Shown here piece after piece: positions 2,100 through 29,588 of a stretch of 32,000 nt of DNA. This DNA comes from Candidatus Jordarchaeales archaeon (GTDB lineage: Archaea; Asgardarchaeota; Jordiarchaeia; Jordiarchaeales; Freyrarchaeaceae), in contig JAWCFL010000001.1 of NCBI GenBank assembly GCA_038858525.1, positions 170,120 through 202,119 of the forward strand. Reading direction: 5' to 3'. The position numbers and the translations under genes were made by a program. Position 1 is the stretch's first letter. The number at the start of each line of letters is the position of its first letter. A model generated the notes under the pieces. That model had not been told where the DNA came from, did not search any database, and saw only the letters and a list, made by a program, of their open reading frames with translations.

Positions 2100-2121
2100 C
2101 CTGAAGAGGGGTGTTATAGTC

Positions 2122-2603: not shown

Positions 2604-4268
2604 GTGAACATTATGGCTGGCACTTTTTTGAAGTTTTTCAAACCACTGATCCGTTTTATGCCGGAGGTTAAGCCTCCTGAGCGGAAGGTTAGCTTCAGAG
2701 AGAAATTATTATGGACTGGCGTCATTTTAGTTCTCTACTTAATAATGGCGAACCTTCCACTTTACGGCGTCCCTCAAGGGCAGGGATATGACTACTTGTA
2801 TTTTCTCAGAGTTATCCTTGCCTCGTCTAGAGGAACGCTAATGGAGCTGGGCATAGGACCCATAGTTACCGCAGGCCTCGTTATGCAACTGCTTGCCGGC
2901 TCAAAACTGATCGATGTTGACTTCTCAAATCCTGAGGATAGAGCGCTTTTCACCGGAGCACAAAAAGCACTCGCAGTTCTGATGACGATGATAGAAGCAG
3001 GAGTATTCATTTTCGCCAGGGCATATGGCGACTTGACAGTTTACCAGGCTGCACTGGTTTTCCTTCAGTTAACTGTTGCAGGAGTAGTTCTTATACTAAT
3101 GGATGAAACGCTGCAAAAAGGCTGGGGATTAGGAAGTGGGATAAGCCTGTTCATAGCAGCTAACGTAGCTGGACAGATCCTCTGGCTTTCTCTGAACCCC
3201 AATCCGAGCCCATACGACTACCTCGGAGTGGGCGTACTCGTAGCGTTAGTTCAGGTGATCACGTTCCCCTACTGGCCTGCAGCATCAATGTTCATGCAAG
3301 TTCTAGGTTCCTATCCTACGTTTCAGCGTCTTAGTGAGGAGGCGATTTCAGCTGCTACTCAGGCAGCAACCTACATGTTCTACTACATCGCGTTTAACCC
3401 GAGAGCCGCACTATACTACGTTTTCTTCAGGCCTCAAGGTCAGCCAAACGTGATTGGGCTTATAGGCACATTAATCGTCTTTCTGATAGTAATATTTATT
3501 CAGAGCGTGAGAGTTGAAATACCTCTCCAGTATGCGCGCTTTAGAGGCTTTAGGGGGAGGTATCCGATAAAGTTTCTTTACGTGTCAGTTATACCGGTTA
3601 TTCTGGTTCAAGCTATAATTGCGAACATACTACTGGTTTCGCAGGTTTTATGGTCTAATGTGGGGTTCATTTCACTGGCACAGCTTATACCATTCCTGGA
3701 AAGTGCTTGGCCGGACATTGATCTAAGCTCGTTAGCACCGTTTGCCAGCGTCGGGTGGAACTTTAACCCGTTGGTTAATATTTTGGGGCAATTTATTCCT
3801 TCCACAACTAATTTAAACCAGTTAACTCCAGCTGGAGGAATAGCCTATTACTTCTCAACACCCTACGGGTTAGATAACGTTTTCAGGGATCCGGGACGGG
3901 CACTAGTTTATCTCGCCATTTTCTCCTCACTTTGCGCTGCACTTTCATATATATGGATAGATGTGTCCGGAATGAGCGCGAGGGACGTAGCTAATCAGTT
4001 AATAATGGCGGGAATGCAGGTTCCAGGATTTAGGAGGTCTCCTAAGATAGTAGAGAAGCTCCTTGAGAGGTATATTCCACCTGTTACGGTGCTTGGCGGA
4101 TTTGCGGTAGGGTTGCTGGCGGCGTTCGCCGACTTCCTTGGGGCTCTGGGAACCGGAACAGGAGTTTTGCTGACTGTGGGAATACTTTATAATTACTACG
4201 AGCTAATTGCAAAGGAGCAGTTGGCCTCGATGAGTCCTGCATTAAGAGGGTTGCTGGGATTAGAGTAA
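2604..4268 (+). CDS. secY: Preprotein translocase subunit SecY (Sec61-alpha), with enlarged external loops
   Basis: GTLMELGIGPIVTAGLVMQLL, KGWGLGSGISLFIA, YPIKFLYVSVIP and GTGTGVLLTVGI motifs; 10-TM pattern. Start may be ATG 2613. Confidence 0.97.
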   Translation: MNIMAGTFLKFFKPLIRFMPEVKPPERKVSFREKLLWTGVILVLYLIMANLPLYGVPQGQGYDYLYFLRVILASSRGTLMELGIGPIVTAGLVMQLLAGSKLIDVDFSNPEDRALFTGAQKALAVLMTMIEAGVFIFARAYGDLTVYQAALVFLQLTVAGVVLILMDETLQKGWGLGSGISLFIAANVAGQILWLSLNPNPSPYDYLGVGVLVALVQVITFPYWPAASMFMQVLGSYPTFQRLSEEAISAATQAATYMFYYIAFNPRAALYYVFFRPQGQPNVIGLIGTLIVFLIVIFIQSVRVEIPLQYARFRGFRGRYPIKFLYVSVIPVILVQAIIANILLVSQVLWSNVGFISLAQLIPFLESAWPDIDLSSLAPFASVGWNFNPLVNILGQFIPSTTNLNQLTPAGGIAYYFSTPYGLDNVFRDPGRALVYLAIFSSLCAALSYIWIDVSGMSARDVANQLIMAGMQVPGFRRSPKIVEKLLERYIPPVTVLGGFAVGLLAAFADFLGALGTGTGVLLTVGILYNYYELIAKEQLASMSPALRGLLGLE

Positions 4269-4294
4269 GAGAAATAAAAAAGGGAGGAGTTTGA

Positions 4295-4909
4295 TTGATT
4301 GAAGATGGAGTTGTTGTGGTGGTTACCGGAGTTCCCGGAGTAGGTAAAACCACGGTGATCGATGCTGCCGTGAAGGCGGCGAAAAGTGAAGGGATAAACG
4401 TTACATTGATGAATTATGGGACAGTGATGTTTGAAATAGCAAAGGCTAGGGGGCTCGTTGAAAACAGGGACCAGATGAGGAAGCTGCCTTCAAGTGTTCA
4501 GAGGGAGGTGCAAAGGCTTGCAGCAAAGAGAATCGCAGAGGCGGCAAGGGAAGGCATAGTTCTCGTCGATACGCATATGCTAATTAATACTCCTGAAGGC
4601 TTCCTTCCGGGAATACCGGTGTGGGTTGCAGAAAACCTTAGACCGAGCGTATTAGTGCTGGTTGAAGCAGACCCGGAAGAAATAAGAAACAGGAGAAGGA
4701 AGGACGAAACGAGGGAGAGAGACTTGCAGCCCGTGGAGGAAATTCGTTTACATCAAGAAATGTGTAGGGCAGTGGCCGCCGCGTGTGCGACCCTTACGGG
4801 CGCCACCATAGCTGTAATACCTAATCATGATGGAAAAGCGCATGAAGCAGCCGAGATGGTCTTTAATCTTTTCAAAGCGATAGCGGCAAAGCTCAAAGAG
4901 GTGTCATAG
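4295..4909 (+). CDS. adk: Archaeal adenylate kinase
   Basis: P-loop GVPGVGKTT, RDQMRKLP, DTH and GFLPGIP motifs; follows secY. Confidence 0.95.
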   Translation: MIEDGVVVVVTGVPGVGKTTVIDAAVKAAKSEGINVTLMNYGTVMFEIAKARGLVENRDQMRKLPSSVQREVQRLAAKRIAEAAREGIVLVDTHMLINTPEGFLPGIPVWVAENLRPSVLVLVEADPEEIRNRRRKDETRERDLQPVEEIRLHQEMCRAVAAACATLTGATIAVIPNHDGKAHEAAEMVFNLFKAIAAKLKEVS

Positions 4910-5623
4910 TTGTGGAGTCCTTCTCTTCCGCCGTGCTCAACATTAATAGTGCTTGGAGTGGCGATTTTAGTCACGCTAACTTCAAGTATAGTCAACCGTT
5001 TACTTCTACCCGTGGCTAAAATAAGACGGTATACGCGCGAAATAAGAAAATGGAGAGAAGCAATGCAGAAGGCGCGAGAAACAGGAGATGAAAAACTTAT
5101 GCTGAAGGTTAAAAGGAGGCAAAGGCTTATCGAGAGAATGCAGAGAGAGCAAGCAAGCCTTCAGTTCAGGCCGATGCTCGTCTACCTTATACCATTTTTA
5201 GTCTTATTCTATTATCTGAACAGCTTTTACAGTTTCCCGTTTGGCCCGGTCGTCTCGCCAACCATCGTAGCTATACTGCCCATCTCAGCCATGGAGGTCC
5301 CAGGCTTCCCCGCAGGAACATTTGGAGGGTACGTCAGCCCCCTGCTCACCGACGTTGCATTGGCTTACCCGGCATTCTTCGCTCTGTGGCCTAGGATATA
5401 TCTCATGCAGGTGATCCCGGGACTTTCAGAGCTCCAAGTGCTTTTGAACGTTATTAATCTGGTGTCAGGTTTAAGCTTGGAGTTGCCGATCTCTCCCGTC
5501 GTTGACGGCTGGGCGCCAATACCGGGATTTGGTTTATGGTTTATTTGGTGGTATTTCATGTCAAGCATTGCTTTTGGAGGCCTTTTCCAGCGCCTCTTTG
5601 GAGTTTATATTCAACAGACGTGA
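4910..5623 (+). CDS. DUF106 / EMC3-TMCO1-Get1 (Oxa1 superfamily) membrane protein
   Basis: N-terminal TM, coiled coil (REIRKWREAMQKA), FRPM and C-terminal WYFMSS motifs; canonical position between adk and rpl34e. Confidence 0.88.
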   Translation: MWSPSLPPCSTLIVLGVAILVTLTSSIVNRLLLPVAKIRRYTREIRKWREAMQKARETGDEKLMLKVKRRQRLIERMQREQASLQFRPMLVYLIPFLVLFYYLNSFYSFPFGPVVSPTIVAILPISAMEVPGFPAGTFGGYVSPLLTDVALAYPAFFALWPRIYLMQVIPGLSELQVLLNVINLVSGLSLELPISPVVDGWAPIPGFGLWFIWWYFMSSIAFGGLFQRLFGVYIQQT

Positions 5624-5632
5624 GGTGAGAGT

Positions 5633-5902
5633 GTGCCGGAGCCAAAGTTAAGGTCCAGGAGTTTTAAAAGAAAAAAGGTTCGAACCCCTGGAGGACGGAT
5701 AGCAGATCATTACTGGAGAAGTACTTCAAGAAGGTACAAGTGCGCGCTGTGCGGCGGTGTGCTTCACGGGTGCCCCACGAACAAGTACGAGGAAAAAGAG
5801 GCAAAAACCAAAAAAAGACCCGAGAGACCGTATGGAGGCTATCTCTGTCATCGCTGCCTCAGAATGGCTTTGAAAAATAAATTAATGCAGGAGGCTGTCT
5901 AA
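5633..5902 (+). CDS. rpl34e: 50S ribosomal protein L34e (eL34)
   Basis: RTPGGR, CxxCG and KRPERPYGGYLCHRC motifs. Confidence 0.96.
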   Translation: MPEPKLRSRSFKRKKVRTPGGRIADHYWRSTSRRYKCALCGGVLHGCPTNKYEEKEAKTKKRPERPYGGYLCHRCLRMALKNKLMQEAV

Positions 5903-5907
5903 AGGCT

Positions 5908-6507
5908 TTGGTGGTAATTACGATTAGCGGTCTCCATGGGACGGGAAAAACCACGCAAGCCAAGTTCCTAGCCAAGCGTTTCGGGCTAAGATATGTTTCA
6001 GCAGGAGAGATAATGAGGAAAATGGCTGAGGAAAGAGGCATAAGCCTCGAGGAATTCTCAAGAATAGCTGAAAATGACCCTCTGATCGATAGACAGATCG
6101 ATGAAAGAATGATTTCAGAGGCTGAGAAGGGAAACGTGGTTTTGGATGGACGGCTGACAGCCTGGATGGCGGGAGATAAAGCAGACATTAAGATTCTGTT
6201 GACGGCGCCACTTGATATCCGAGTTGAAAGAATAGCTAAAAGAGAAGGCAAGAGCATTGAAGAAGCTTTAAAAGAGACGGTGATAAGAGAGGAAAGCGAG
6301 AAAAAAAGGTTTATGGACATATATGGCATAGACGTAGACGACTGCAGTGTGTTCGACATTGTGGTAAACACAGCCTTGTGGGACGAGAAATCCGTGGGGA
6401 AGCTGCTTGAGCTCTTGGTTGAAGCCTATTCAGCCTCGTCCTCTAAAAGAAATGAAGCTTCCGAGGCAACTCGGATGATGGATCGAGGAGAGATGGAGGT
6501 GAAATAA
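5908..6507 (+). CDS. cmk: Cytidylate kinase (archaeal type)
   Basis: ITISGLHGTGKTT P-loop, SAGEIMR, DRQID and DGRLTAW motifs. Confidence 0.94.
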   Translation: MVVITISGLHGTGKTTQAKFLAKRFGLRYVSAGEIMRKMAEERGISLEEFSRIAENDPLIDRQIDERMISEAEKGNVVLDGRLTAWMAGDKADIKILLTAPLDIRVERIAKREGKSIEEALKETVIREESEKKRFMDIYGIDVDDCSVFDIVVNTALWDEKSVGKLLELLVEAYSASSSKRNEASEATRMMDRGEMEVK

Positions 6508-6780
6508 ATGGCGTTAAGACCTGGAAGCATATGTGTTAAAACAGCTGGAAGAGAAGCGGGAAAGAAGTGTGTTGTGGTTGACATGCTGGATAAAAACTTT
6601 GTCTTAATAACCGGTCCGCCCAGCTTGAACGGTGTTAAGAGAAGAAGAGCGAACATTAAACACTTAGAGGCAACAGGAGAGCATGTAGATATTCCGAAGG
6701 GGGCAGACGACGAACTCGTCTTAAAGAAGCTGGAAGAGGCGGGTTTAGCTGAGAAGCTGAAGGAGAAGATTAAAGTCTAA
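6508..6780 (+). CDS. rpl14e: 50S ribosomal protein L14e (eL14)
   Basis: GSICVKTAGREAGKKCVVVD...VLITGP...GVKRRRANIKHLE. Confidence 0.96.
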   Translation: MALRPGSICVKTAGREAGKKCVVVDMLDKNFVLITGPPSLNGVKRRRANIKHLEATGEHVDIPKGADDELVLKKLEEAGLAEKLKEKIKV

Positions 6781-6818
6781 TCTTCCCTTTAGCTTATTTT
6801 TTACTTTAAATTTAATTA

Positions 6819-7880
6819 ATGACGGTGATTTATGTGCCCAAGATCATTCCGCCGGAGGGTTTGAAAAGAAAGGTTATCGTTAAGAGTGAAGAGGAAACCA
6901 GTGAGGAGTACGGTAAACGTCCTAGCGAGAGGAGTGTGGAGGAGCTTTTAGAGGGGTGCTTCGTGAACATAGATAAGCCGGCAGGCCCGACCAGCCACGA
7001 AGTTTCTTCCTGGGTAAGGAGAATTTTGGGTTGCTCAAAAACTGGACATGCAGGGACACTAGAACCCCTTCAGACTTTGAAGGGGTGGTGAAATCCTAAG
7101 GTTACTGGGGTCTTGCCGGTTGCGGTAGGGTCTGCTACAAAGGTTATACAGGCCCTTCACCTTATAGGGAAAGAATACGTTTGCGTTATGAGGCTCCACG
7201 AGGATGTTGAGGGCGAAAGGATCAAGAAGATCTGTAAGGAGTTTACTGGGCCAATCTATCAGAGGCCGCCGATACGTTCCTCGGTGAAGCGAAGGCTTAG
7301 AGTAAGACGGATATATTACCTCGACGTGCTTGAGGTGGAAGGAAGAAATGTCCTGCTGAGAATAGGATGCGAGTCTGGGACGTACATAAGGAAGCTTTGC
7401 CACGACATAGGGGAGGCGTTAGGGTGCGGCGCTCACATGCGCGAGCTTAGAAGAACTCGAAGTGGACCTTTTACCGAGAGAAACATGGTAACGCTACACG
7501 ACTTAAAGGACGCCTATGTTTTTTGGAAGGAGGAGGGTGATGAAGCTCCCATCAGAAAAGTGTTATTACCAGTAGAGGAGGGAGTGCAGCACTTGCCCAA
7601 GTTTTTCGTGAGGGACTCAGCTGTTGACGCCATATGTCATGGAGCGGACTTAGCTGTTCCCGGCGTAGTCAAGCTTGAAGATGGAGTGGAGAAGGGTGAT
7701 GTGGTCGCGATCTTGACTCTTAAGGGTGAACTAGTCGCTCTGGGCGTTGCCCTGATGACCGTAGAGGAAGTTGTAAGAGAAAAGCGGGGAATAGCGGTTA
7801 AAACGACAAGAGTAATAATGAGCAAAGGAACTTACCCAAAACTCTGGAAAAGCAAGAAGAATAGCGGTTCAATCACGTAG
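6819..7880 (+). CDS. cbf5: H/ACA pseudouridine synthase Cbf5, join(6819..7062,7093..7880), 343 aa after splicing
   Basis: Two same-frame ORFs separated by TGA 7089-7091. Removing 7063-7092 restores [15 protein letters not shown] with the catalytic Asp. [25 protein letters not shown] and PUA domain present. Start could be GTG 6834. Confidence 0.95.
7063..7092 (+). other. BHB (tRNA-type) intron in cbf5, 30 nt
   Basis: Exon helix GGGA/UCCU; central helix CACU(7057-60)/GGUG(7087-90); bulges AG^A and AA^A; perfect 9-bp intron stem ACCCCUUCA/UGAAGGGGU with a GACUU loop. Confidence 0.96.
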
Positions 7881-13323: not shown

Positions 13324-14751
13324 CTACTTACTGCTAAGTTCCGCGTTTAGGTGCTCAATGAACTCTTCCTCCCTACCAGCGGGAATGTATGCTCCAGCAG
13401 CCAAGTCATGCCCACCAGCGACGAAGTTTAACCCCATTTCATTTATGACGTACCTCATTAGTTCACCCAAGTTTACCTCTTTCTTAACTTCTGATCCTAA
13501 GCGAGCAGAGACTTTAACTGCTGCTTCTTCTTCCGAGTATGCGAACCCGACAATCACTTTGTCTCGATACGATTTTGATGAAGAAAGAATTGAAGTTACA
13601 GTTCCAATCATCTTGTCGTCAATATAGCGTTCTCCGTTGAACCAGCAGATGTCGCCTTTAACGTTCACCTTGCCTTTCCCAAGCCATTCCATGTAATCTG
13701 CTAGCTTCGCTCGATACTCACTAGCAACTTTTGCAACTTCTCCATAGACATTTCGGTCCCCCATGCAGATAGCTAACCCCAAGCTTGTTTTCCCTGTTCG
13801 CCCGCAAGCATTAAGGAGGAAGGCGAACTCCCTAGCGTCCCTTGTTGGTGTTCCAAGTGGCTCCCTAGTTAGAACGTAAACTGTCCCAATAATGCTCTGC
13901 GCCTCATCAGCGCTCATTCCACCTGGCCCAAGCATGTACTTGACAAGCTCCGATACGAGCTTCGACTTTTCCTGTTGTGAAAGTTCAGACAGAGTTCTCC
14001 ACCGGTCACCAGACTTCAACGGAATCTTAACTCTCTCTACAAGGAACTTCACACAGGCAGCATGATTACCGGACAGCCCGGGTATGAAGGGCTCCATAGT
14101 GTACTCGAGAGCGACAGGTATGGGTCTCGTCTCCCGCCCGAAGAACATTAGGTCCTTAACTTCTTCTAGAACACCCAACTCTATTGCTTCTCTAACTATC
14201 TCAGCGTTTAAGCCTGTCAGGCTTCGCCCTTCACCTTTATCCTGGCGGTCACCAAGCGCACCGATAACGGCGAGGGTAGATAGGTCCCGATTCGCGTCAT
14301 TGACCTCCTTGGATACCAAGTAAGCCATTCCAGCACCACTAATTTCGGCTCCCCCGTCTAAGCCGAAGAGGTGAGGATTAATTTGCATGAAGCTTTCTTT
14401 ATCATTCTCTGGGGGATGATGATCTATGATCACCACGTTCTCCCTTAATACCTCGTTTATGAGGCTCAACTGGCCGCTACCTAGATCTGTGAACACGAAT
14501 ACTCTCTGAGTTTTTGGAAGAGATTTTAAGACGCGCTCGCTAAGCTGGTGAACTATTCTAGCGTGAAACTTGGCGTCAATCCTTCTAAGCGTCTTTAACA
14601 TTATGCTGGCCGCCGCTAATCCGTCGGCATCTAGATGGGAAACCACCTGGAAAACGTGTGAACGTGCTCTTTCGAGTATGAATTCGGCAATGCTTCGAGC
14701 ATGACTAATAAGTTGAGAGGAAGGCAACGCTTCGAGGTCACCTTTTCTCAT
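13324..14751 (-). CDS. DHH-family phosphoesterase (archaeal RecJ-like)
   Basis: HLDADG, TDLG, IDHH, GALGD and GGHDLAAGA motifs; typical neighbour of rps15. Confidence 0.92.
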
Positions 14752-15206
14752 TGCCTTACGAGTAAAGCTACCTTTTCGGGGTCATACTTCCAGTCTGGCG
14801 GCAGAACATGGCATTTCTTATAGTACTTCACCAACCTATGAATTTTTGACTCTGTGAGCTGGAGTCCTCTTCTCGAGTGAAGGTCTTTCCTGTGCTCTTC
14901 GAGATGTCTCCTGATTCTTAAAGCTCGCCGAATTAAGTTTGTGAGGTCCTCCGGGAGGGGGGACGTTAATCCATGCTCTTTCATGATCTGCGTAATCTTT
15001 TTACCCACTATTGGCTTAACAAGCGGGACGCCATGTTGGTCTCTTAGTATTATTCCGATCATTGATGGAGGGTAGCCGCTCCTAGCTAGCTCAACCACTT
15101 TATCGACTACCCATTCTGGGGTTTTGTCGAACCATTCTGGCGGTTTCTTTACCGGAGGACGCTTAGATGAAGATTTCCTCTTTTTCCTCGCGTGCATTCT
15201 CGCCAT
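14748..15206 (-). CDS. rps15: 30S ribosomal protein S15/S13e (uS15)
   Basis: [23 protein letters not shown] and [17 protein letters not shown] motifs. Confidence 0.97.
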
Positions 15207-15259
15207 AATAGAACCCTTCTCTCAGGATAATGCTAGGGGGCTGATAAGAAACTTGATGT

Positions 15260-15868
15260 TTAAATAATTTTCGAGGATGTTAGCCATTCAGCAAGCTTCC
15301 TGAGGGCTCTCGCCCTATGTGACAGCTTATTCTTTTCCCTAACGTCGAGCTCGGCAAAGCTCCTTCCATCACCCTCCTCAGGTATAAATATAGGGTCGAA
15401 ACCAAATCCACGTTCTCCCTTGACGGCGTGAGATATGAAGCCTGAAGCCTGACCTTTAAACACCAGCATCTCCTTGCCATCTGTGAACGCCACAACCGAA
15501 ACAAAAACAGCTCTCCTGTTATCGACGCCATCCATAAGTTTTAGCACGCCTTCATTGCCTATTTTGCTGAAGACATAGGAGGAATAAGGTCCTGGGAACC
15601 CGTTGAGCGCCTCTATGAAGAGGCCGGCGTCCTCAACGAAAAAAGGGCATCTTGGATTCGCCTCCCGCATCAGCCAAGCCAGACTAATCCTAGCGATCTC
15701 TTCCAAGCTTTCCGACTGGACCTCGAGGCGCTTCACGTCCCACTGTTCAACATTTAACCCGTACTCTGAAAAAACGATCTCAGCTTCTTGAAGCTTGTGC
15801 CTGTTACTTGTGGCGAAGAGGACATGTTTCACCTTTCCCAGTAGCGCCCCCTCCTTTCGATCTCCCAC
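15260..15868 (-). CDS. rdgB: XTP/dITP diphosphatase (Ham1/RdgB)
   Basis: FATSNRHK, EDAGLFIEALNGFPGPYS, GFGFDPIF and SHR motifs. True start may be a few codons downstream. Confidence 0.94.
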   Translation of the reverse strand: MGDRKEGALLGKVKHVLFATSNRHKLQEAEIVFSEYGLNVEQWDVKRLEVQSESLEEIARISLAWLMREANPRCPFFVEDAGLFIEALNGFPGPYSSYVFSKIGNEGVLKLMDGVDNRRAVFVSVVAFTDGKEMLVFKGQASGFISHAVKGERGFGFDPIFIPEEGDGRSFAELDVREKNKLSHRARALRKLAEWLTSSKII

Positions 15869-16455
15869 ATTTTATCTATAACTTCATTTGCCCCCTCAAA
15901 GGCGTCCCTATAACCTTGAAGAACAGCGTTGAATCCTTCTTCGAAAACGTCGTAATGACTGCTTTCCATTGCCCGCTTCATCAAGTGCAGGTCAACTCCC
16001 AAGTCCTCAACGTTCCTCGAAAAGTCTCCAAGCCCAAAATCGATGAAAAAAATCTTCCCGTTACTAACAATCATGTTTGAAGTTGTCAGGTCTCCGTGTA
16101 CTATGCCCTCCCTGTGAAGCCGCCCTATTAATTCGCCCACCTCACGCAACAACCTGACAAGTTCTTCGCGCGGCAAACCTCCTTCCTTTATGAGGTCACT
16201 TAAAGTTCTTCCATCAATGTAATCCATAATTATAGAGGCGGATTCTAAGTCGACGAGGTAAACTGTGGGCGCCGGGACGCCGGCTCTCTTTGCGCTATGA
16301 AGCAAGCGCGCCTCACGAATAACTCTCTGTCTTCTTAAGCTGTCATCCAGTTCCTTGATCCTGTAAAGCTTAGGCTTACGCTCCTTAACGACAACTCTTC
16401 GCCCAAAAACATGGCTAAGGAGAAGATGAGCTTCAGCCCCCTTCTTGATCATCAC
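15829..16455 (-). CDS. bud32: KEOPS kinase Bud32
   Basis: KGAEA, REARLL, HGDLTTSNM, IDFGL and VEDLGVDL motifs. Confidence 0.95.
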   Translation of the reverse strand: MMIKKGAEAHLLLSHVFGRRVVVKERKPKLYRIKELDDSLRRQRVIREARLLHSAKRAGVPAPTVYLVDLESASIIMDYIDGRTLSDLIKEGGLPREELVRLLREVGELIGRLHREGIVHGDLTTSNMIVSNGKIFFIDFGLGDFSRNVEDLGVDLHLMKRAMESSHYDVFEEGFNAVLQGYRDAFEGANEVIDKMWEIERRGRYWER

Positions 16456-16461
16456 CGTATC

Positions 16462-17492
16462 TCACCTCTCACTCTCAACCCATGATACTTGAACCTCGTC
16501 AAGCCTCCACCTCGGCTTCACGTAGCTTTCCTCCACCCTTAGGATCCTTCCACTAACATACTCTAATATTCCTGTCCAGGCGATCATTGCTCCATTATCT
16601 CCTGCCAACTGCTGGGGGACCACGTGGAAGGAGGCGCCATGCTCCTCAGCTATCACTCTGATCATTTCTTGCAACCTCCTGTTTCTGCCGACACCTCCCG
16701 TCAGTAGAACGTCACCTTTACGCGTGTGCGCCAGAGCCCTCTCAGTCACTTCAGCCAGCATGGAGAAGCAGACTTCCTGAACGCTGTAGCACAGATCTTC
16801 AACTTTGCAACTACCAATCTTGCCAACCGCAGCGGTGTAAACCCCAGAATAGGAGAGGTCCATTCCCTTGACGACATATGGCAGCGGAATAAAAGTGCTT
16901 CCTTTACTCGCCAGCTCTTCGACCTTTGGCCCGCCAGGATGCTTTAAACCCAGCGCCCTAGCGAGCATGTCAAGCATGTTTCCGATGGCCAAGTCAAGCG
17001 TCTCCCCAAAGACACGGTACCTGCCTTTCTCGTAAGCTGCAACCAGAGTGTTTCCTCCAGAAACATACAACGTTAAGGGGTCTTCAACGTTCTCGGTGAG
17101 ACGCCCAATTTCTATGTGGGCTAAACAGTGATTAACGCCCACTAAGGGAACGTTTAACGCCAGTGCAAGCGCTCTGGCAGCCGTCGCCACCGTTCTCAGG
17201 CAAGGGCCTTTGGGGGCTTCGCCAACCCCGGCCCTTGAGAGAACGCGACCAAGTTAACCTCACTTATTTTGATTCCGGCTTCGCTTATAGCTGAGGTGAT
17301 CGCCTGCTTAACCGCGTTCGAGTGGTGCTGCGCGGCTTCCCTAGGGTGGATCCCGCCCTCAGCGGGCACATACTCGTCTCTGATGTTCGCTAGAATTTCT
17401 CCTTCACTACTTGCCACTCCTACACCTAAAGTGTGAGCTGTTCCTTCGAGCCCCATGCATAGCAGGCGGCGGCCGCCCAGTGCCTTCCTCAC
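16462..17492 (-). CDS. kae1: t6A synthase Kae1 (TsaD), complement(join(16462..17209,17224..17492)), about 338 aa after splicing
   Basis: N-terminal LEGTAHT, GGIHPREAAQHH and FSQGPG are in one frame. ATAARALA, VNHCLAHIE, VSGGNT and GDNGAMIA are in another. Removing 17210-17223 gives FSQGPGLGPCLRTVATAAR. Start codon (GTG 17492) is uncertain. Confidence 0.93.
17210..17223 (-). other. Minimal BHB intron in kae1, 14 nt (GGCGAAGCCCCCAA)
   Basis: mRNA reads CAAGGGCC GGGG UU^G GC GAA GC CCCC AA^A GGCCCUUG: 8-bp exon helix, 4-bp G-C central helix, two 3-nt bulges and a 2-bp stem with a GAA loop. Confidence 0.94.
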
Positions 17493-17511
17493 AAGTCTCA
17501 GTGTAGCGCCA

Positions 17512-17712
17512 TCAGCCGCCTTCATCCTCCTTATCCTCATCCTCTCTTTTCTTTTCCTTAGCTTCCCTAACATACTCCGTGTATCCACACTTGCCGCAGG
17601 TGTAACGGCGCCAGTGCTCCGCCATGAAGACGCCTGGCCCACACCTGGGACAGAACTTTTTGGCGCGAACCAGTTGGCCATTGACGATCTTGTAGTATTT
17701 GCCAACGCTCAC
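17512..17712 (-). CDS. rps27ae: 30S ribosomal protein S27ae (eS31)
   Basis: YYKI...[29 protein letters not shown]; short acidic tail. Confidence 0.96.
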
Positions 17713-17734
17713 TTAACATCCCTCCCTTTCGCTC

Positions 17735-18037
17735 TTAAGCTGCACCTTTACTTTCATCGCCGAGATTACGATTAATGAGGTAATCTGGCTCTATTTGGAG
17801 GGCAACATCCTTAGAGCTGTAAACTCGAGCCACCCCCTTAGACTGGCCCACACCGTACTCGGTCTCTATTTTTCTTATGAACACTTGGTCTAGGGAGACA
17901 TTGAGGAGGGCGGCGAGCTTGCGCCTGACTTCCACTCTGTTCGGCGTGCCCTCGCCTTCATGCTCAACCACGAACTCTACTTCTTCCCTGTTAAAGAAAG
18001 GGTTTTTACTTCGAGAAACAAGTTTCACTTCCATCAC
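17735..18037 (-). CDS. rps24e: 30S ribosomal protein S24e (eS24)
   Basis: NPFFNREE, TPNRVEVRRKLA and TEYGVGQSKGVARVY motifs. Confidence 0.95.
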   Translation of the reverse strand: MMEVKLVSRSKNPFFNREEVEFVVEHEGEGTPNRVEVRRKLAALLNVSLDQVFIRKIETEYGVGQSKGVARVYSSKDVALQIEPDYLINRNLGDESKGAA

Positions 18038-18566
18038 GTGAAGCCTCCCGCATTTCTTTAATAATGCTCATAACGCGTTTTTTCGCATCCTCATCAGCCT
18101 CTAGAACTACTAATCCTTGACCAGGCTGACCATAAATTATTATCGTTTCCTCTGGGGCGAGTAGCGCGGCAGGTATTGTAAGCAGGTCTTCTTCTCCATC
18201 AACCTCCACGCACACTCTGCCAGCCCTCGAGTATGCATCCTCGAAAACTCTCCACGCCTCCTTTTTTATCGTCCCTGGAGGGTTTCTCAGATTAAGCTTC
18301 TCCCACCCATCCAAATTTAATTTAAGCCCGATGGTCCTAAGCGTTTTCCCATCAACCACAATAATATCCGGCTCGACGCCCACCTCAAGAAGCGTCTTCG
18401 CCACCACGTCGCCGACCGCGACCACCCTCACGCTTCCCCCCCTCTCCTCGAGCATGCGCTTAACCCTCAAGCTGCTTTCAGGGTGCCGCCCCTCGACCAG
18501 CACACCAAAAGGCGCCTTAAGCCGTTCCCGTAACTTCAAAGGCAACTCTAAGTCGTAGTCCAGCAA
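18006..18566 (-). CDS. GTP-dependent dephospho-CoA kinase (DUF359 family)
   Basis: VGDVV, VVDGKTLR, NPPGTI, VDGEEDL and YGQPGQG motifs; canonical position between spt4 and rps24e. Confidence 0.9.
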   Translation of the reverse strand: MLDYDLELPLKLRERLKAPFGVLVEGRHPESSLRVKRMLEERGGSVRVVAVGDVVAKTLLEVGVEPDIIVVDGKTLRTIGLKLNLDGWEKLNLRNPPGTIKKEAWRVFEDAYSRAGRVCVEVDGEEDLLTIPAALLAPEETIIIYGQPGQGLVVLEADEDAKKRVMSIIKEMREASRDGSETCFSK

Positions 18567-18572
18567 CCAGCG

Positions 18573-18758
18573 TCACCTAACTTTCAACGCGTACCTACCC
18601 TTCTTCTTGATGTTCAGCTTCTTAGCTATCTGTGACCCTTCAGGGTCAAAAACGACTAGTAGTCCCCCATAATCATCAGATAGGGAGGACGTTTTGCACT
18701 CAGGGCACATCTGGTCTCTAACTAGAAGTTTACAGGTACGGCAGGCCCGCTCCCTCAA
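18573..18758 (-). CDS. spt4: Transcription elongation factor Spt4 (RpoE'')
   Basis: RACRTC...CPEC zinc ribbon, DPEGSQIAKKL and GRYALKVR motifs. Confidence 0.95.
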   Translation of the reverse strand: MRERACRTCKLLVRDQMCPECKTSSLSDDYGGLLVVFDPEGSQIAKKLNIKKKGRYALKVR

Positions 18759-19339
18759 GTTCCCTTAACCTCCTCATCACTTCTCTTTCCACCACTTTTT
18801 TCAGCTTCCTCTTTTATCCACTCTAGCTTTCCCAAGAATGGTTGACGCATAGTTAACCCTATCCGTCCCCCTCTAGCCCCCCCGGTCATAGAGACAGAGA
18901 CAACTCTCGCCCTCACAACATCGTTCTGCATTAGGCGCTTCCCTGTCTCCTTCCCCGTCAATATCCCAGCTTTGCCGTCGTAATCGATGAAGTCATCCAT
19001 GAGCTGAGAAATGTGGATGAGCCCCTCAATAGGCCCGAGACGCACGAAGACGCCGAAGTCAACGATCGCCGTCACAACACCCTCAACAACCTCGTTCTGC
19101 TCAGGCTTAAAGGTGAGAACATGGAAGGTCGCCTCATGGAATGCTCCTCCATCACCCGGAATAAGCCTCCCGACACCAACATCCTCCACGCCGACAACGC
19201 AAAGCACAATCCCCAGCTCAGGATCCATAACTTTCTCATACTCCTGCCTAAGCATTTCGAGAGCAACCTTCTCGACAGGCTCCCCAAACCTGTCAGGAGG
19301 AATCCTGAGCACATCCTTAAGTGTGACAAGTTTATACAC
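18755..19339 (-). CDS. rpoE: RNA polymerase subunit Rpo7 (E')
   Basis: LRIPPDRFG, GDGGAFH, FGVFVRLGPIEGLIHISQ and RIGLTMRQPFLGKLEWI motifs. Confidence 0.96.
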   Translation of the reverse strand: MYKLVTLKDVLRIPPDRFGEPVEKVALEMLRQEYEKVMDPELGIVLCVVGVEDVGVGRLIPGDGGAFHEATFHVLTFKPEQNEVVEGVVTAIVDFGVFVRLGPIEGLIHISQLMDDFIDYDGKAGILTGKETGKRLMQNDVVRARVVSVSMTGGARGGRIGLTMRQPFLGKLEWIKEEAEKSGGKRSDEEVKGT

Positions 19340-19439
19340 GCAACGACACCTCCAAGGAAACCAGCAGACTCAACAAGCGCAGCACCAAACCAAAACGCAA
19401 GAAAACACTTGGTCAGCCTCACGACTAACATTCATCACC

Positions 19440-19853
19440 TTATAAAATTTCCCCATCAAGAAACAAACGTCTTCCCTGCCTTAGAAAGACCACAGGCACA
19501 CCAACCCGCCTGAGACGCCTACGAAGCTTGGCGTCATTAGTCGCCACAACACAACCCTCCCTCTTAGCATAATCGAAGACCGCGTCATCTACGCCCCCAC
19601 CCTCCACCCCCGATGGGCAAACCCTAAACCCTCTTACCTCAACGAGAGACAAGGCAGCCCTTGCCAGTTTCCCTCTCCTCCCACCCTTCTCAGCCAGCTT
19701 CATCAACTCATCAATAACCCGATCCAAAACAATAACCTCATAGCGCCCACCAATAACCCGACCAAGCTCTGAGAAGACATCCCATCCCAACAGAAACGGA
19801 GCAATCAAAAAGTTACTGTCAACTAAAACCCTAACATATGATCCCCCACCCAA
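19440..19853 (-). CDS. PIN-domain protein (Fcf1/Utp24-like)
   Basis: LVDSNFL, VIDEL, DD and VATND acidic PIN motifs; canonical position downstream of eif2g. Confidence 0.9.
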   Translation of the reverse strand: MGGGSYVRVLVDSNFLIAPFLLGWDVFSELGRVIGGRYEVIVLDRVIDELMKLAEKGGRRGKLARAALSLVEVRGFRVCPSGVEGGGVDDAVFDYAKREGCVVATNDAKLRRRLRRVGVPVVFLRQGRRLFLDGEIL

Positions 19854-21121
19854 TAAGCCTCCACCTTCCCGAAACCATCCTGCTCACAGCCACCCTCTGA
19901 CCATCCTCAGCACACACAGGACGCCGCAGCGCCACTTCAACCTCCCCACTCCTAATCGACGATACAACGCCCACTGTCACCGCCGACCCAACATTCAGCA
20001 TTAAAGCCTCATTAACACGCACATTCTCCACCCTGGAAAGCTCCTCGCTTCCCACAACCCTATCCATCAGGTGAAGCTCAATACACAAATCCTCACGCAC
20101 GGGAGGAAGGGTCCCGGGAGAACCTACAACGTTCCCAATCAAACCATCAGCCTTCGTCAAAGAGGGGTCCAGCCGCGTACCAACACCAATCAACCCACCT
20201 GGCAAAGCTTCCTCAAGCCACACGTCACCAGCATGCAAACTTACAACGTCAGCATAAATAGGCTCAAACTTACCTTTAACAGCAACTCCCGGACGAATTT
20301 CAACCTCATCCCCAACCCTAACTCTACCTTGAATAATGGTTCCACCAATAACGCCCCCAACAAGATCCTCAGGCCTAGTTCCCGGCTTATTCACATCAAA
20401 TGACCTCGCCACATACATCCTCAAAGGCTTACCCGGGTCTCTAACCGGATTAGGAATATGCTCTTCCATGAACTGCAACAAAGCATCCAAATTAACACCA
20501 AAAACAGCCGAAACAGGAACAATAGGAGCATCCTCAGCAAAACTACCACCAATAAACCTCTTAATCTGTCTAAAGTTTTCTAATGCCTTCTCCCTAGAAA
20601 CAAGCTCAACCTTATTCTGAACAATAACAACATTCCTCACACCAATAATCTCCAAAGCCGCAAAGTGCTCTCTAGTCTGCGGCTGAGGGCAAAACTCATT
20701 AGCAGCAACAACAAAAACACAACCATCCATCAAAGACGCACCACTAATCATGGTCGCCATTAACCGCTCATGACCAGGACTATCCACAAAGCTGACCTTC
20801 CTCACAAACTCAGCTTCACTCCCACACTTAGGGCACTTCCACCCCCCAGCCATAGCCAAAGTAAAGTAGCAGTCAGGAGGCGGGCAAGATGGACACTTCA
20901 AAATAATAGCATCAGCATAACCCAACTTAATCGTAATACCACGACGCTTCTCCTCACTATGACGATCAGTCCACACACCAGCCAAAGCCTGCACAAGCGT
21001 GGTTCTTGGCCCGCGAGAGAGACACTCCCAACGGATTGCCATGATCCACGTCTCTAGCACCAGCTGATCAACAGCTGGCGAGTCCAGCTGTTCCCACAGA
21101 AACTAAAGCCTGCGTACTCAT
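19831..21121 (-). CDS. eif2g: Translation initiation factor 2 gamma subunit (aIF2-gamma), complement(join(19831..21004,21036..21051,21082..21121)), 409 aa after splicing
   Basis: The ORF-track protein lacks the P-loop. Removing two inserts gives [61 protein letters not shown], NKVE and RWRLIGWG motifs are downstream. Confidence 0.94.
21005..21035 (-). other. BHB intron 2 in eif2g, 31 nt
   Basis: Central helix UGGC/GCCA (4 Watson-Crick pairs); bulges AA^U and AG^A; intron stem CCGU-U-GGGAG/CUCUC-GCGG. Splicing restores the P-loop Lys codon (AA+A). Confidence 0.92.
21052..21081 (-). other. BHB intron 1 in eif2g, 30 nt
   Basis: Central helix CUGG/CUAG; bulges AC^U and AG^A; 9-bp stem CGCCAGCUG/CAGCUGGUG with a UUGAU loop; in-frame TGA at 21070-21068. 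Splicing restores the His codon (C+AC). Confidence 0.92.
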
Positions 21122-21190
21122 GGCCTTCTTATAAGCTTCGTCCAAACAAGAACCCCCAAGAGCTTTTAGGAAAGTCTTCACGAAAGCGTT

Positions 21191-27390: not shown

Positions 27391-27506
27391 GAATGTGTTA
27401 GAATAGGGAAGATAAAGACTTAAATAAGTCTTGGTGAAAATACCCTGTTTGAAAAATGCGAGCTTTCTTTTTTTTAAAAAGAAAGGATGGGGAGAAATGG
27501 ATAACG

Positions 27507-29588
27507 ATGAGTGGTGATTCCGAAGATAATAATGAGAAACATAAAAAGCGCCATGTCAACGGTTCTAGAGGGAAAAAAAGTAACGGCGCGGGCGGTAATC
27601 ACAGTAATGGCAGCAATCACAGGCAAAGCGTAAAAGTCCTTGGTCCCGTAAGCAACTTAGAGGAGTACGTTCCACACGACTGGTGGAGTCGAATCTTCAA
27701 CTCGCTTTACCTAAAGACTGACGGGGACGTTGTAGACGACCAAGAGATTACGCGTTACGAAGTGGACTTGTTCTCCTCGATCCTAAAGCTTAAGCCTGAA
27801 GACAGGATCCTCGATTTGTGCTGCGGTCAGGGACGCCACTCCTTGGAGCTAGCGAGGAGAGGATATAAGTTCGTTGAGGGACTTGATAAGTCGCATTACC
27901 TGATACATAAAGCTAAGGAAAGAGCGAAAAAAGAAGGGTTAAATGTCAGGTTCAGGGTTGGCGATGCGAGAAAGTTACCCTACCCACCGGACACTTTTGA
28001 CGTCGTGATGATCTTGGGGAACAGCTTCGGCTACTTTGAAACGGTATACGACGACCTTAGAGTGCTAAAGGAGGTTTTCAGGGTTCTGAAGCCGTGGGGC
28101 CGGGTTCTAATAGATGTAGCTGACGGAGAATACCTCAAGGAGCACTTCCAGCCTCGCTCGTGGGAATGGGTGGACAAGAAGCACTTCGTTGTCCGAGAGC
28201 GCTCATTATCAGCTGACCGGCAACGCCTCATATCCCGAGAGATAATCACGCATGTTGAGAAGGGAGTTATTGCAGACCACTTCTATGCGGAAAGGCTCTA
28301 CACGAAAGAAGGACTCAGAGACCTCTTGCAGCAAGCCGGCTTAAGCGACGTCACTATTCACGGGGACTTAACGACGTTTTCTAAGCGCAACCAAGATTTA
28401 GGAATGATGGAGAAACGCATAGTAATCACCGCCATAGCCAAGAAAGAGTGGACGCCGATAAAGAGAAGAGAAAAAGAGTCACTCTTAACGGTCGCAGTAA
28501 TCCTAGGCGACCCAACTAAACGCGACCCACTAAAACCCGGCGGGGTATTCGACGAAGACGACATTTACACGATCGACGCGCTCAAGGACGCGTTAAGACA
28601 ACTTAATGGCTACAACTTCATATACCTAAACAACCACGATAACTTACTCCAAGACTTGATTAAACTCAAGCCGAAAATAGATTACGTCTTCAACTTGTGT
28701 GATGAAGGATTTAACAACGATCCAAGAAAAGAGTTACACGTCCCAGCGATACTTGAAATGCTCAATATACCTTATACCGGCTCAGGGCCACAACCTCTAG
28801 CCCACTGCTATGATAAATCCCTGATAAGGGGATTGGCGAGAGAAATGGGGATTCCTGTTCCCAAGGCAGTCCTGATTAAGCCAGAAGACGAATCCGTCGA
28901 GATACCCTTCGGCTTTCCGGCCATAGTAAAGCCAAACTTCGGCGACTCAAGCTTTGGAATCACATGTAGGTCAGTGGTTAACAACTCCGAGGAGCTCCTA
29001 AACGCCATAGCCGAAATACGCGAAAGGTTTGGCTACAACAGACCAATACTTATCGAGGAGTTCTTGACCGGAAAGGATCTAACAGTAGGAATAATAGGAA
29101 ACGTACCTGATTCCTACATGGTTCTACCCATAACGGAAGAAGACTACTCGAGTCTACCAGAAGGAATGCCTCCGATTTGTGGCTACGAAGCAAAATGGCT
29201 TCCCGACTCGCCATACTGGAATATTAAAACGAAGCCAGCGGAGCTACCGCCTGAAACAGAAACGATCATTGTAAAGTCGTGCATCAGCCTCTTTGAACGA
29301 CTCGAAATCAGAGACTACTGCAGGTTCGACTGGAGGCTTGACGCAAACGGAAGGCCAAAGCTTCTCGAGGTCAACCCCAACCCCGGATTGGGTGCACCTA
29401 ACGGTGCGCCGCACGGAAGGTGTTGGGACGGGCACCTCGCAAAGATGGCGAAGTTCGCAGGGATGTCTTACGCTGAGATGCTAGGAGCCATCCTAAGGGC
29501 GGCAGAGCAGAGACTGGGCATCCGACCGAAATACGAGAAATATGAGAAGGTAGGGGAGGAAGCCCGGGTAGAGGCGAGGGCAACATAA
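27507..29588 (+). CDS. Class I SAM methyltransferase fused to a D-Ala-D-Ala-ligase-like ATP-grasp domain; probably join(27507..29388,29419..29588)
   Basis: ILDLCCGQGRH, GDAR and GNSFGYF (methyltransferase); NLCDEG, IPYTGS, VKPNFGDSSFGI, IEEFL, RFDWR and LEVNPNPG (ATP-grasp). ATG 27507 preferred over the track start at 27456. Confidence 0.9.
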   Translation: MSGDSEDNNEKHKKRHVNGSRGKKSNGAGGNHSNGSNHRQSVKVLGPVSNLEEYVPHDWWSRIFNSLYLKTDGDVVDDQEITRYEVDLFSSILKLKPEDRILDLCCGQGRHSLELARRGYKFVEGLDKSHYLIHKAKERAKKEGLNVRFRVGDARKLPYPPDTFDVVMILGNSFGYFETVYDDLRVLKEVFRVLKPWGRVLIDVADGEYLKEHFQPRSWEWVDKKHFVVRERSLSADRQRLISREIITHVEKGVIADHFYAERLYTKEGLRDLLQQAGLSDVTIHGDLTTFSKRNQDLGMMEKRIVITAIAKKEWTPIKRREKESLLTVAVILGDPTKRDPLKPGGVFDEDDIYTIDALKDALRQLNGYNFIYLNNHDNLLQDLIKLKPKIDYVFNLCDEGFNNDPRKELHVPAILEMLNIPYTGSGPQPLAHCYDKSLIRGLAREMGIPVPKAVLIKPEDESVEIPFGFPAIVKPNFGDSSFGITCRSVVNNSEELLNAIAEIRERFGYNRPILIEEFLTGKDLTVGIIGNVPDSYMVLPITEEDYSSLPEGMPPICGYEAKWLPDSPYWNIKTKPAELPPETETIIVKSCISLFERLEIRDYCRFDWRLDANGRPKLLEVNPNPGLGAPNGAPHGRCWDGHLAKMAKFAGMSYAEMLGAILRAAEQRLGIRPKYEKYEKVGEEARVEARAT
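29389..29418 (+). other. Probable relaxed BHB intron, 30 nt, in-frame and stop-free
   Basis: Bulges AU^U and AA^G; central CCGG/ACGG (3 pairs plus G.A); 8-bp stem GGUGCACC/GGUGCGCC with a UAAC loop; exon helix CCCAAC/GUUGGG. Removal converts NPGLGAPNGAPHGRCWDG into NPGWCWDG. Confidence 0.75.

What the first reader, a model, noticed from the sequence alone, without database searches (positions are those of the whole stretch)
29376..29427. In-frame, stop-free intron candidate in an accessory methyltransferase/ATP-grasp gene
Seen: a 30-nt insert (8-bp stem, bulges AUU and AAG) lies just after the ATP-grasp EVN motif. Removal gives EVNPNPGWCWDGHLAKMA, which from memory is the family consensus (not verified by alignment here). 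It is the only intron that neither frameshifts nor contains a stop, and the only one with a mismatch (G.A) in the central helix. Inference: either relaxed selection and decay towards exonisation, or cleavage by a broad-specificity EndA. It also suggests intron gain in a non-core gene, and that such introns are invisible to ORF callers.
Basis: partly seen in the sequence, partly recalled or inferred. Interest (0 to 1): 0.75.

Follow-up and report, generated by a model that had tools for sequence, protein, structure and literature searches.

The report
Young in-frame tRNA-type mini-intron
A 30-base insert found only in this Asgard archaeon species splits an invariant tryptophan codon of a conserved enzyme gene and is shaped like a tRNA intron; environmental RNA ends exactly at its predicted cut site, so it is most likely a recently gained mRNA intron that gene finders translate straight through, though the rejoined mRNA has not been seen.

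Summary
Bases 29389..29418 (30 nt) interrupt the T|GG codon of the invariant Trp in the EVNPNPGWCWDGHLAKMA motif of a SAM-methyltransferase/ATP-grasp fusion gene (true CDS 27507..29588). No homologue examined carries the insert: none of about 270 proteins and none of the 10 other genomes of the order, including 3 of the same genus. It is fixed in this species (22 contigs, at least 6 assemblies), so it is a recent gain and not an artefact. The gene stays under purifying selection (dN/dS about 0.05; 9 of 10 within-species changes are synonymous). The homology-defined junctions match the cut positions of a relaxed bulge-helix-bulge: 3 base pairs plus a G.A mismatch in the central helix, bulges AU|U and AA|G, and an 8-bp hairpin. 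The genome encodes an A. pernix-like two-subunit EndA and RtcB. I verified four more mini-introns in this window (cbf5, kae1, two in eIF2-gamma). A metatranscriptome contig ends exactly at 29388 and is joined, apparently as a circle, to the transcript start at 27507. That supports cleavage at the 5' splice site. The exon-exon junction was not seen. Structure alone is weak evidence, because decoys match as often genome-wide. This scan has already flagged many BHB mRNA introns elsewhere in this genome. This one is new in being in-frame, stop-free and species-specific.

The parts
27469..27483 (+). T/A-rich TATA-like box about 25-38 nt upstream of 27507; probable promoter of a leaderless transcript
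   Evidence: Sequence. A similar box lies upstream of the aligned ATG in orthologues. The T and A run lengths vary between strains, so this stretch is non-coding. That it acts as a promoter is an inference.
27507..29388 (+). 5' exon: true start codon (Met18 of the long ORF) up to the first base (T) of the split Trp codon. It encodes the SAM methyltransferase domain and most of the ATP-grasp domain
   Evidence: Pfam PF13649 and PF07478. In orthologues L002 and L004 the aligned ATG is the first Met after a stop. Public gene calls start here. The RNA contig X14 covers 28600..29388 and, by arithmetic, 27507..28599.
29376..29382 (+). Outer helix h, 5' strand (CCCAACC, exon). It pairs with 29420..29427, with U29421 bulged
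   Evidence: Explicit pair list; fold. The complementarity of CCNAAC and GYTGGG is also present in intron-less orthologues.
29383..29386 (+). Central helix H, exon strand (CCGG)
   Evidence: It pairs with ACGG at 29413..29416: three Watson-Crick pairs plus G29386.A29413.
29387..29389 (+). Bulge 1 (AU|U). The predicted 5' cut is after 29388
   Evidence: The junction is fixed independently by homology. The RNA contig ends at 29388.
29389..29418 (+). The 30-nt insert, read as an intron. It is in-frame and stop-free, and if translated it encodes (L)GAPNGAPHG(R)
   Evidence: Present only in this species. No similar sequence exists elsewhere in the genome or the order.
29390..29412 (+). Inner helix h': G29390-C29412, G29411 bulged, then an 8-bp stem 29391-98 / 29403-10 with loop UAAC (29399-29402)
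29413..29416 (+). Central helix H, intron strand (ACGG)
29417..29419 (+). Bulge 2 (AA|G). The predicted 3' cut is after 29418
   Evidence: Position fixed by homology. No RNA evidence for this cut.
29419..29588 (+). 3' exon: the GG of the Trp codon, then CWDGHLAKMA... to the stop codon

Best explanation
Bases 29389..29418 are a recently acquired bulge-helix-bulge (tRNA-type) mini-intron in the coding region of a methyltransferase/ATP-grasp gene of a Jordarchaeum-like Asgard archaeon. In the pre-mRNA, exon bases CCGG pair with intron bases ACGG to form the central helix. Pre-existing exon complementarity (CCCAAC/GUUGGG) forms the outer helix, and the intron's own 8-bp hairpin forms the inner helix. 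The two-subunit EndA cuts after the second base of each 3-nt bulge, at 29388|29389 and 29418|29419. RtcB then joins the exons and restores the TGG (Trp) codon and the family motif NPNPGWCWDG. Because the intron is 30 nt with no stop codon, unspliced mRNA would give a full-length protein with Trp replaced by Leu plus 10 extra residues next to the catalytic Glu/Asn. That protein is probably inactive. Shown: the insert, its uniqueness to this species, the exact codon restoration, purifying selection, the presence of the enzymes, other mini-introns in the same window, and an RNA 3' end exactly at the 5' cut. Inferred: the 3' cut, exon ligation, and inactivity of the unspliced product.
For: (1) Homology: about 270 homologues and 10 related genomes lack the insert. 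Removing it restores the invariant Trp codon, and only one 30-nt frame does so. (2) The site is 4 residues after the Mg/ATP-binding E-x-N and aligns to the LEVNTLPGMT segment of solved D-Ala-D-Ala ligases. (3) The gene is functional after the insertion. dN/dS is about 0.05 against genus relatives. All 7 differences in the X14 strain are synonymous, and other strains carry 2 further synonymous sites and 1 non-synonymous site. (4) The homology-defined junctions coincide with canonical BHB cut positions. The same geometry fits four other inserts in this window whose removal restores conserved proteins or motifs: cbf5, kae1, and eIF2-gamma GHVDHG and HGKTT. (5) Machinery: the EndA alpha subunit matches A. 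pernix alpha at 1.6e-48, including the loop region; a second paralogue lacks the catalytic His; RtcB is present. (6) RNA: the metatranscriptome contig (depth 64) stops at exactly 29388 and is joined to position 27507, which is the conserved start codon and likely leaderless transcript start. DNA runs read straight through the insert. Circularisation at the exon end next to the cbf5 intron has been reported in Sulfolobus (PMC3326292). (7) The insert is real DNA, found on 22 contigs from at least 6 assemblies.
Against: No RNA with the 29388->29419 junction was found. The central helix has a G.A mismatch, both flanking helices need a 1-nt bulge, and the BHB fold is 3.9 kcal/mol above the MFE. BHB-like geometry is as common in slid-partner decoys as in the real genome, so the structure adds little on its own. 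The insert is in-frame and stop-free, which is what a tolerated coding indel would also look like. No donor copy or related intron was found. The strains are too similar to test covariation. That the 1093 unseen letters of the RNA contig are collinear is inferred from arithmetic and was not read directly.
Confidence: 0.68

Rival explanations
1. It is a plain, species-specific in-frame insertion that is translated. The enzyme tolerates a Trp-to-Leu change plus a 10-residue loop (or has changed activity), and the hairpin and BHB-like shape are incidental.
For: The insert is in-frame and stop-free. Public annotations translate it. No spliced RNA was seen. The BHB is imperfect and is not the MFE. 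BHB-like geometry is common by chance. There is no donor intron.
Against: The Trp is invariant in the close family, and no homologue has any insert there. The site is in the active-site segment next to E-x-N. The gene remains under strong purifying selection. The RNA contig ends exactly at the predicted cut and not elsewhere. The same genome and window hold several inserts of the same size and shape that must be removed.
Confidence: 0.18
2. EndA cuts the motif but the exons are rarely or never rejoined. The insert then acts as an mRNA cleavage or down-regulation site (or is slightly deleterious), producing a stable, possibly circular 5' fragment (27507..29388) rather than a spliced mRNA.
For: The only RNA form seen is the 5' exon ending at 29388 and joined to 27507, at depth 64, with nothing assembled downstream. 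The relaxed motif with a mismatch could be a poor ligation substrate.
Against: Purifying selection on the whole gene, including synonymous-only changes in the 3' exon (29543 and 29567), argues that the full protein is still made. Contig assembly trims short low-coverage ends, so absence of the 170-nt 3' exon proves nothing (tool note). Circles accumulate because they resist exonucleases, so their depth overstates their share of the RNA.
Confidence: 0.12
3. It is an assembly or sequencing artefact, or a chimeric contig.
For: None found.
Against: The identical insert is in an independent 2017 DNA run (X12) and in 22 contigs from NCBI, JGI, ENA and Logan assemblies.
Confidence: 0.01

Closest known systems
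BHB intron in the cbf5 pre-mRNA of Crenarchaeota (Watanabe 2002; Yokobori 2009, PMC2738675)
   Same: It is a short intervening sequence inside a protein-coding region, bounded by a bulge-helix-bulge whose exon half supplies part of the motif. It is presumed to be cut by a hetero-oligomeric EndA and rejoined by the tRNA ligase. Gain and loss among related lineages are documented for cbf5. Exon-end circularisation next to the intron was seen for cbf5 in Sulfolobus (PMC3326292).
   Different: The host gene is different (methyltransferase/ATP-grasp) and the lineage is different (Asgard, Jordarchaeum-like). The insert is restricted to one species. It is in-frame with no stop, so the unspliced mRNA is fully translatable. 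The central helix has a G.A mismatch. Exon ligation has not been demonstrated here. This window also holds a canonical 30-nt cbf5 intron of its own (7063..7092).
BHB intron in the 5' UTR of Haloferax volcanii HVO_1309 (PMC7714728)
   Same: It is an mRNA substrate of the splicing endonuclease outside tRNA and rRNA, and it was detected through circular RNA products.
   Different: That intron is non-coding (UTR) and 46 nt long, and it was validated in vitro. The insert here lies inside a codon of the ORF.
Non-canonical tRNA introns of Asgard archaea and Thermoproteales (PMC11291895; bioRxiv 10.64898/2026.10.13.758758)
   Same: The size range is the same, the BHB motifs are relaxed, gains are repeated and lineage-specific, and the genomic background has a two-paralogue EndA.
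   Different: Those introns are in tRNA genes. Neither paper reports introns in Asgard protein-coding genes.
IRE1/RtcB unconventional splicing of XBP1/HAC1 mRNA in eukaryotes (my own knowledge; mentioned in PMC13149111)
   Same: It is protein-only excision of a small intron from an mRNA at paired stem-loop cut sites, with rejoining by RtcB.
   Different: The endonuclease is different (IRE1) and the event is a regulated frameshift switch. It is not homologous at the level of the intron.

Membership tests
Archaeal EndA/RtcB-spliced (BHB) intron in a pre-mRNA | The intervening sequence is absent from the mature coding sequence as defined by homologues, and its removal restores the reading frame or motif | tested here: met
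   About 270 homologues and 10 related genomes lack it. Only removal of 29389..29418 restores the TGG (Trp) codon.
Archaeal EndA/RtcB-spliced (BHB) intron in a pre-mRNA | [quoted passage not shown] | tested here: inconclusive
   The bulges AU|U and AA|G are at the right places. The central helix has 3 base pairs plus G.A, and both flanking helices need a 1-nt bulge. The motif is 3.9 kcal/mol above the MFE. This is a relaxed motif. The four other introns verified in this window have 4/4 central pairs.
Archaeal EndA/RtcB-spliced (BHB) intron in a pre-mRNA | The splicing endonuclease and the RtcB ligase are encoded by the organism | tested here: met
   PF01974 matches twice and PF01139 once in the window's own genome.
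Archaeal EndA/RtcB-spliced (BHB) intron in a pre-mRNA | Cleavage at the predicted sites in cellular RNA | tested here: inconclusive
   5' site: one metatranscriptome contig ends exactly at 29388 and is joined to the transcript start. 3' site: no data.
Archaeal EndA/RtcB-spliced (BHB) intron in a pre-mRNA | Ligated exon-exon junction in RNA | tested here: inconclusive
   Not seen in the two RNA runs laid, in the JGI contig scan or in protein look-ups. Contigs cannot show absence.
(alpha-beta)2-type archaeal splicing endonuclease (broad specificity) | There are two paralogous subunits, one catalytic (Tyr/His/Lys) and one structural lacking catalytic residues. The alpha subunit carries the Crenarchaea-specific loop | tested here: met
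   The 191-aa paralogue aligns end to end with A. pernix alpha (3P1Z_B, 1.6e-48), with no gap through GQPL..KP.., and has ..DHAP.. The 198-aa paralogue has ..AKNL.. in place of the His. Subunit assembly and substrate range were not tested.
SAM methyltransferase / D-Ala-D-Ala-ligase-like ATP-grasp fusion protein | N-terminal class I methyltransferase domain plus C-terminal Dala_Dala_lig_C with the E-x-N motif | tested here: met
   PF13649 at 2.4e-22 and PF07478 at 2.8e-21. There are thousands of full-length fused homologues in archaea and bacteria.

The most novel reading that the evidence does not exclude
This locus is a snapshot of de novo gain of a tRNA-type intron in a protein gene at species level in an Asgard archaeon. 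Because the intron is in-frame and stop-free, one gene would yield three RNA outcomes: a spliced mRNA for the active enzyme, an unspliced mRNA for a full-length 10-residue-insert variant, and an abundant circular 5'-exon RNA (27507..29388). That would be EndA-based alternative processing or regulation of an mRNA, and it would point to a hidden class of introns that annotation pipelines translate as protein.
Probability: 0.2. Interest if true: 0.8.

Novelty: new member of a known kind. Interest (0 to 1): 0.62.

Why it matters
Within the literature I could search, endonuclease-spliced introns inside archaeal coding regions are documented only for cbf5, plus one 5'-UTR case (PMC7714728, PMC2738675). 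Asgard archaea are the closest prokaryotic relatives of eukaryotes and are already known for intron-rich tRNA genes. A protein-gene intron that is present in one species and absent from three congeners dates an intron gain very tightly. It also shows that a site with pre-existing exon complementarity can accept one. Because the intron is in-frame and stop-free, it is silently translated in public annotation: 22 contigs carry the 693-aa read-through product. Protein databases may therefore hold intron-encoded peptide segments, and counts of archaeal mRNA introns based on broken ORFs would be underestimates. The RNA contig also hints that cleavage products can be circularised, as reported once for cbf5.

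Tried and rejected
(1) Home-made BHB scanners. The relaxed window scan and the genome scans with an ORF-rescue criterion or strict geometry gave as many hits with slid-partner decoys as with the real pairing. No census of introns, or of hidden in-frame introns, can be claimed from them. (2) JGI metagenome scan for either junction form. The three hits are distant homologues (62-67% nt identity) that share the flanking codons by chance, so they say nothing about splicing. (3) Search for short protein fragments of this species across the junction. None was closer than 73%. (4) Exact look-up of the product expected from the circular RNA contig. It is not on record. (5) Donor search for the hairpin in 11 genomes with up to 3 mismatches and blastn-short in the window's own genome. 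Only the locus itself was found. (6) A long-range BHB between 27507 and 29388, or an upstream intron ending at 27506. The required complementary 4-mer is absent and the 5' region has no significant fold (z about 0), so 27507 is better read as a transcription start. (7) Covariation test across strains. It is impossible, because there are 0-3 differences per 2082 nt and none lies in the motif. (8) RNA run X15 covers only 28847..29043, and no RNA contig covers 29389..29700. No conclusion is drawn from that gap. (9) ARAGORN and Rfam found nothing in the window. (10) The sigma-70 promoter and terminator scan is not informative for an archaeon. (11) Structure prediction was not run. The tool reports confidence only, and that would not discriminate between a spliced and a tolerated insert.
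Full report
THE OBSERVATION. The finding lies in a 710-codon ORF (27456..29588, + strand). Its product has an N-terminal class I SAM methyltransferase domain (PF13649, 2.4e-22) and a C-terminal D-Ala-D-Ala-ligase-type ATP-grasp domain (PF07478, 2.8e-21). The Pfam match stops at residue 647, at the candidate insert. The unspliced reading is ...LLEVNPNPG-LGAPNGAPHGR-CWDGHLAKMA.

HOMOLOGY TEST. Among the 120 best full-length homologues (Asgard, other archaea and bacteria, 66-89% identical over the ATP-grasp half), 116 match my motif pattern, and all 116 read EVNPNPGWCWDGHLAKMA with no insert. In an exhaustive search of 1.8 billion representatives, 64 hits cover the site. None has a 10-residue insert, and W follows the motif in nearly all members of the close family. 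Of 118 further short fragments, 117 have W directly after the motif. At the DNA level, the orthologues from all 10 other genomes of the order align with a clean 30-nt gap, and all read GGN TGG TGY. Three of them are same-genus genomes at 85-90% amino-acid identity. Only one 30-nt deletion frame restores TGG: GGA T|[30 nt]|GG TGT. So the insert splits the codon of an invariant Trp four residues after the E-x-N motif. This segment aligns to LEVNTLPGMT of solved D-Ala-D-Ala ligases. From my own knowledge of DdlB, the Glu and Asn bind Mg/ATP, and the following loop (Gly276 to Leu282) contacts the second substrate.

REAL DNA, YOUNG AND FIXED. An independent 2017 DNA run (X12) reads through the insert without a difference. 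The 693-aa read-through product is called on 22 contigs from at least 6 NCBI, JGI, ENA and Logan assemblies. All same-species members of its 90% cluster keep the insert unchanged, and the nearest other species (P0001) lacks it. No similar sequence exists elsewhere in this genome or in the other 10 genomes. The insert is therefore a species-level gain and not an old intron in decay.

THE GENE IS STILL UNDER SELECTION. dN/dS against same-genus orthologues is 0.05-0.07. All seven differences between the window and the roughly 1%-divergent strain seen in RNA run X14 are synonymous. Other strains differ at three further sites, two synonymous and one non-synonymous, and two of the synonymous sites lie in the 3' exon. 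Nine of ten changes being synonymous is far from the neutral expectation. The protein is therefore still needed in a lineage that carries the insert, and the insert must be either removed or tolerated.

STRUCTURE. With the junctions fixed by homology, the RNA can form the following: an outer helix 29376-82 / 29420-27 (7 pairs, U29421 bulged, all exon); a central helix CCGG / ACGG (3 pairs plus G29386.A29413); bulges AU|U and AA|G with the junction after the second bulge base; and an inner helix G29390-C29412 plus an 8-bp stem with loop UAAC. That EndA cuts after the second bulge base is my own knowledge. It is borne out in this window, because the same geometry gives 4/4 central pairs for four other inserts (see below). 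Several points limit how much the structure proves. The BHB fold (-25.0 kcal/mol) is not the MFE (-28.9 kcal/mol). Three other (i,j) pairs within 15 nt also pass my relaxed test. Genome-wide, strict BHB geometry is no more frequent than in slid-partner decoys (1130 against about 1116). The structure is consistent with a relaxed BHB but is weak evidence alone. The outer-helix complementarity (CCNAAC / GYTGGG) already exists in intron-less orthologues, so this site was pre-adapted to host a BHB.

CONTEXT: THIS WINDOW REALLY HAS mRNA MINI-INTRONS. Pfam profile continuity shows that ORFs 6819..7061 (DKCLD) and 7095..7877 (TruB_N from profile position 17, TruB_C_2, PUA) are two halves of cbf5. They are separated by a 30-nt textbook hBHBh' at 7063..7092 (H = CACU/GGUG, bulges AG|A and AA|A, 9-bp inner stem). 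It is in-frame but contains TGA. kae1/tsaD is split (profile 2-63 and 70-264) by a 14-nt insert at 17210..17223 on the minus strand (H = GGGG/CCCC, no inner helix). eIF2-gamma has two introns. A 30-nt insert at 21052..21081 (minus strand, H = CUGG/CUAG, contains TGA) restores VGTAGHVDHG when removed. A 31-nt insert at 21005..21035 (minus strand, H = UGGC/GCCA) restores HGKTTLVQ when removed. Earlier notes of this scan report many more such introns elsewhere in this genome, some with RNA contigs lacking them. I did not re-test those loci.

MACHINERY. The genome has two PF01974 genes. The 191-aa one aligns end to end with the A. pernix (alpha-beta)2 catalytic subunit (3P1Z_B, 1.6e-48), without gaps through the GQPL..KP.. 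loop region. It has the His context DHAP. The 198-aa one has AKNL at that place, so it lacks the catalytic His, and it is closest to M. kandleri and M. jannaschii chains. This is the two-subunit architecture that the literature links to cleavage of relaxed motifs (PMC5829648 abstract; PMC12397907). It is also reported as common in Asgard genomes (bioRxiv 10.64898/2026.10.13.758758). RtcB is present.

RNA. Two metatranscriptome runs hold part of the gene. In X14, one contig (1912 nt, depth 63.7) maps as follows: record positions 1-53 to 29336..29388; then 1093 letters off my laid stretch; then record positions 1147-1912 to 28600..29365. Its two ends share exactly 30 nt (29336..29365), which is the signature of a circular k=31 contig. 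If the 1093 letters are collinear, the joint is 29388->27507. Position 27507 is the A of the ATG that is the first Met after a stop in orthologues L002 and L004. It is the start chosen by public gene callers. It lies about 25-38 nt downstream of a T/A-rich box whose run lengths vary between strains, which puts the upstream ATG at 27456 out of frame in some strains. So the RNA appears to join a leaderless transcript's 5' end to a 3' end at exactly the predicted 5' splice site. It continues neither into the insert (as the DNA runs do) nor to 29419. Two single-base coincidences of this kind are very unlikely for a random break. I found no BHB at 27507. How the ends were joined is therefore open: in vivo mis-ligation, as Danan et al. 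proposed for circles at the cbf5 exon end in Sulfolobus (PMC3326292), or template switching during library preparation. Either way it indicates a real RNA end at 29388. The exon-exon junction was not observed. Contig assembly trims short, lower-coverage ends, so this is neither support nor refutation.

WEIGHING. I put the spliced-intron reading at about 0.68. In its favour are exact codon restoration, an active-site location, continued purifying selection, the RNA end at the cut site, the machinery, and sibling introns in the same window. A translated, tolerated insertion gets about 0.18, and cleavage without productive ligation about 0.12.

NOVELTY. Papers I could search describe coding-region BHB introns only for crenarchaeal cbf5, plus the HVO_1309 5' UTR (PMC7714728; PMC2738675). 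For Asgard archaea they describe only tRNA introns (PMC11291895). This locus is a new member of that kind. Its unusual properties are species-level recency, an in-frame stop-free sequence that annotation translates, and a possible circular exon product.

Noticed in passing
window 7063..7092 (+): cbf5 of this Asgard archaeon is split (DKCLD exon 6819..7062; TruB_N/TruB_C/PUA exon 7093..7880) by a canonical 30-nt hBHBh' intron. It is in-frame but contains TGA. This is the same host gene as the classic crenarchaeal mRNA intron.
   Followed up: partly
window 17210..17223 (-): kae1/tsaD is split (Pfam TsaD profile 2-63 and 70-264) by a 14-nt insert with H = GGGG/CCCC, a 5-bp outer helix and no inner helix (bulge-helix-loop type).
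   Followed up: partly
window 21052..21081 (-) and 21005..21035 (-): eIF2-gamma carries two mini-introns only 16 nt apart around the P-loop. Removing the 30-nt one (contains TGA) restores VGTAGHVDHG, and removing the 31-nt one restores HGKTTLVQ. Both have 4/4 central-helix pairs.
   Followed up: partly
window 27507..29388 (+), RNA run X14: An apparent 1882-nt circular RNA contig joins the 5' splice site to the transcript start. Across the joint the frame reads T|AT GAG TGG TGA, so a circle would encode only a truncated protein. The mechanism of joining is unexplained (primary transcripts carry a 5' triphosphate, which RtcB does not join).
   Followed up: partly
window 27456..27506 (+): The long ORF's first 17 codons are not coding. 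The T8-9/A5-7 homopolymers here vary in length between strains, and orthologues have a stop upstream of the aligned ATG. The true start is 27507 and the mRNA is probably leaderless.
   Followed up: yes
protein P0177 (another organism, 62% identical): After EVNPNPG this entry reads L-VLGWSPGQNG, which is the +2-frame translation of WCWDGHLAKMA. This indicates a frameshift (error, or another insert) at exactly the same codon in an unrelated metagenomic contig.
   Followed up: no
proteins P0391 and P0392 (same species, one 326-kb NCBI contig): In one assembly the gene is called as two pieces (313 and 379 aa) that break between ...IAKK and (E)WTPIK. This is probably an assembly frameshift and is unrelated to the insert.
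   Followed up: no
whole genome G000: Strict BHB geometry (4-bp H, at least 4-bp h, at least 3-4-bp h', L = 14-45) occurs about 1100 times on both strands and is not enriched over slid-partner decoys. Motif-only intron prediction is unreliable in this genome.
   Followed up: yes
window 392..7880 (+) and 13324..21181 (-): The window is a dense block of translation and RNA-modification genes: L18, S5, L30, L15, SecY, adenylate-kinase-like, EMC3-like, cytidylate kinase, cbf5, aIF2-alpha, AglB/STT3, S3Ae, S15, Ham1, Bud32, Kae1, S24e, Rpo7-like, PIN, aIF2-gamma and EF-1-alpha. The verified introns sit mostly in these core genes. The present one is in an accessory enzyme gene.
   Followed up: partly
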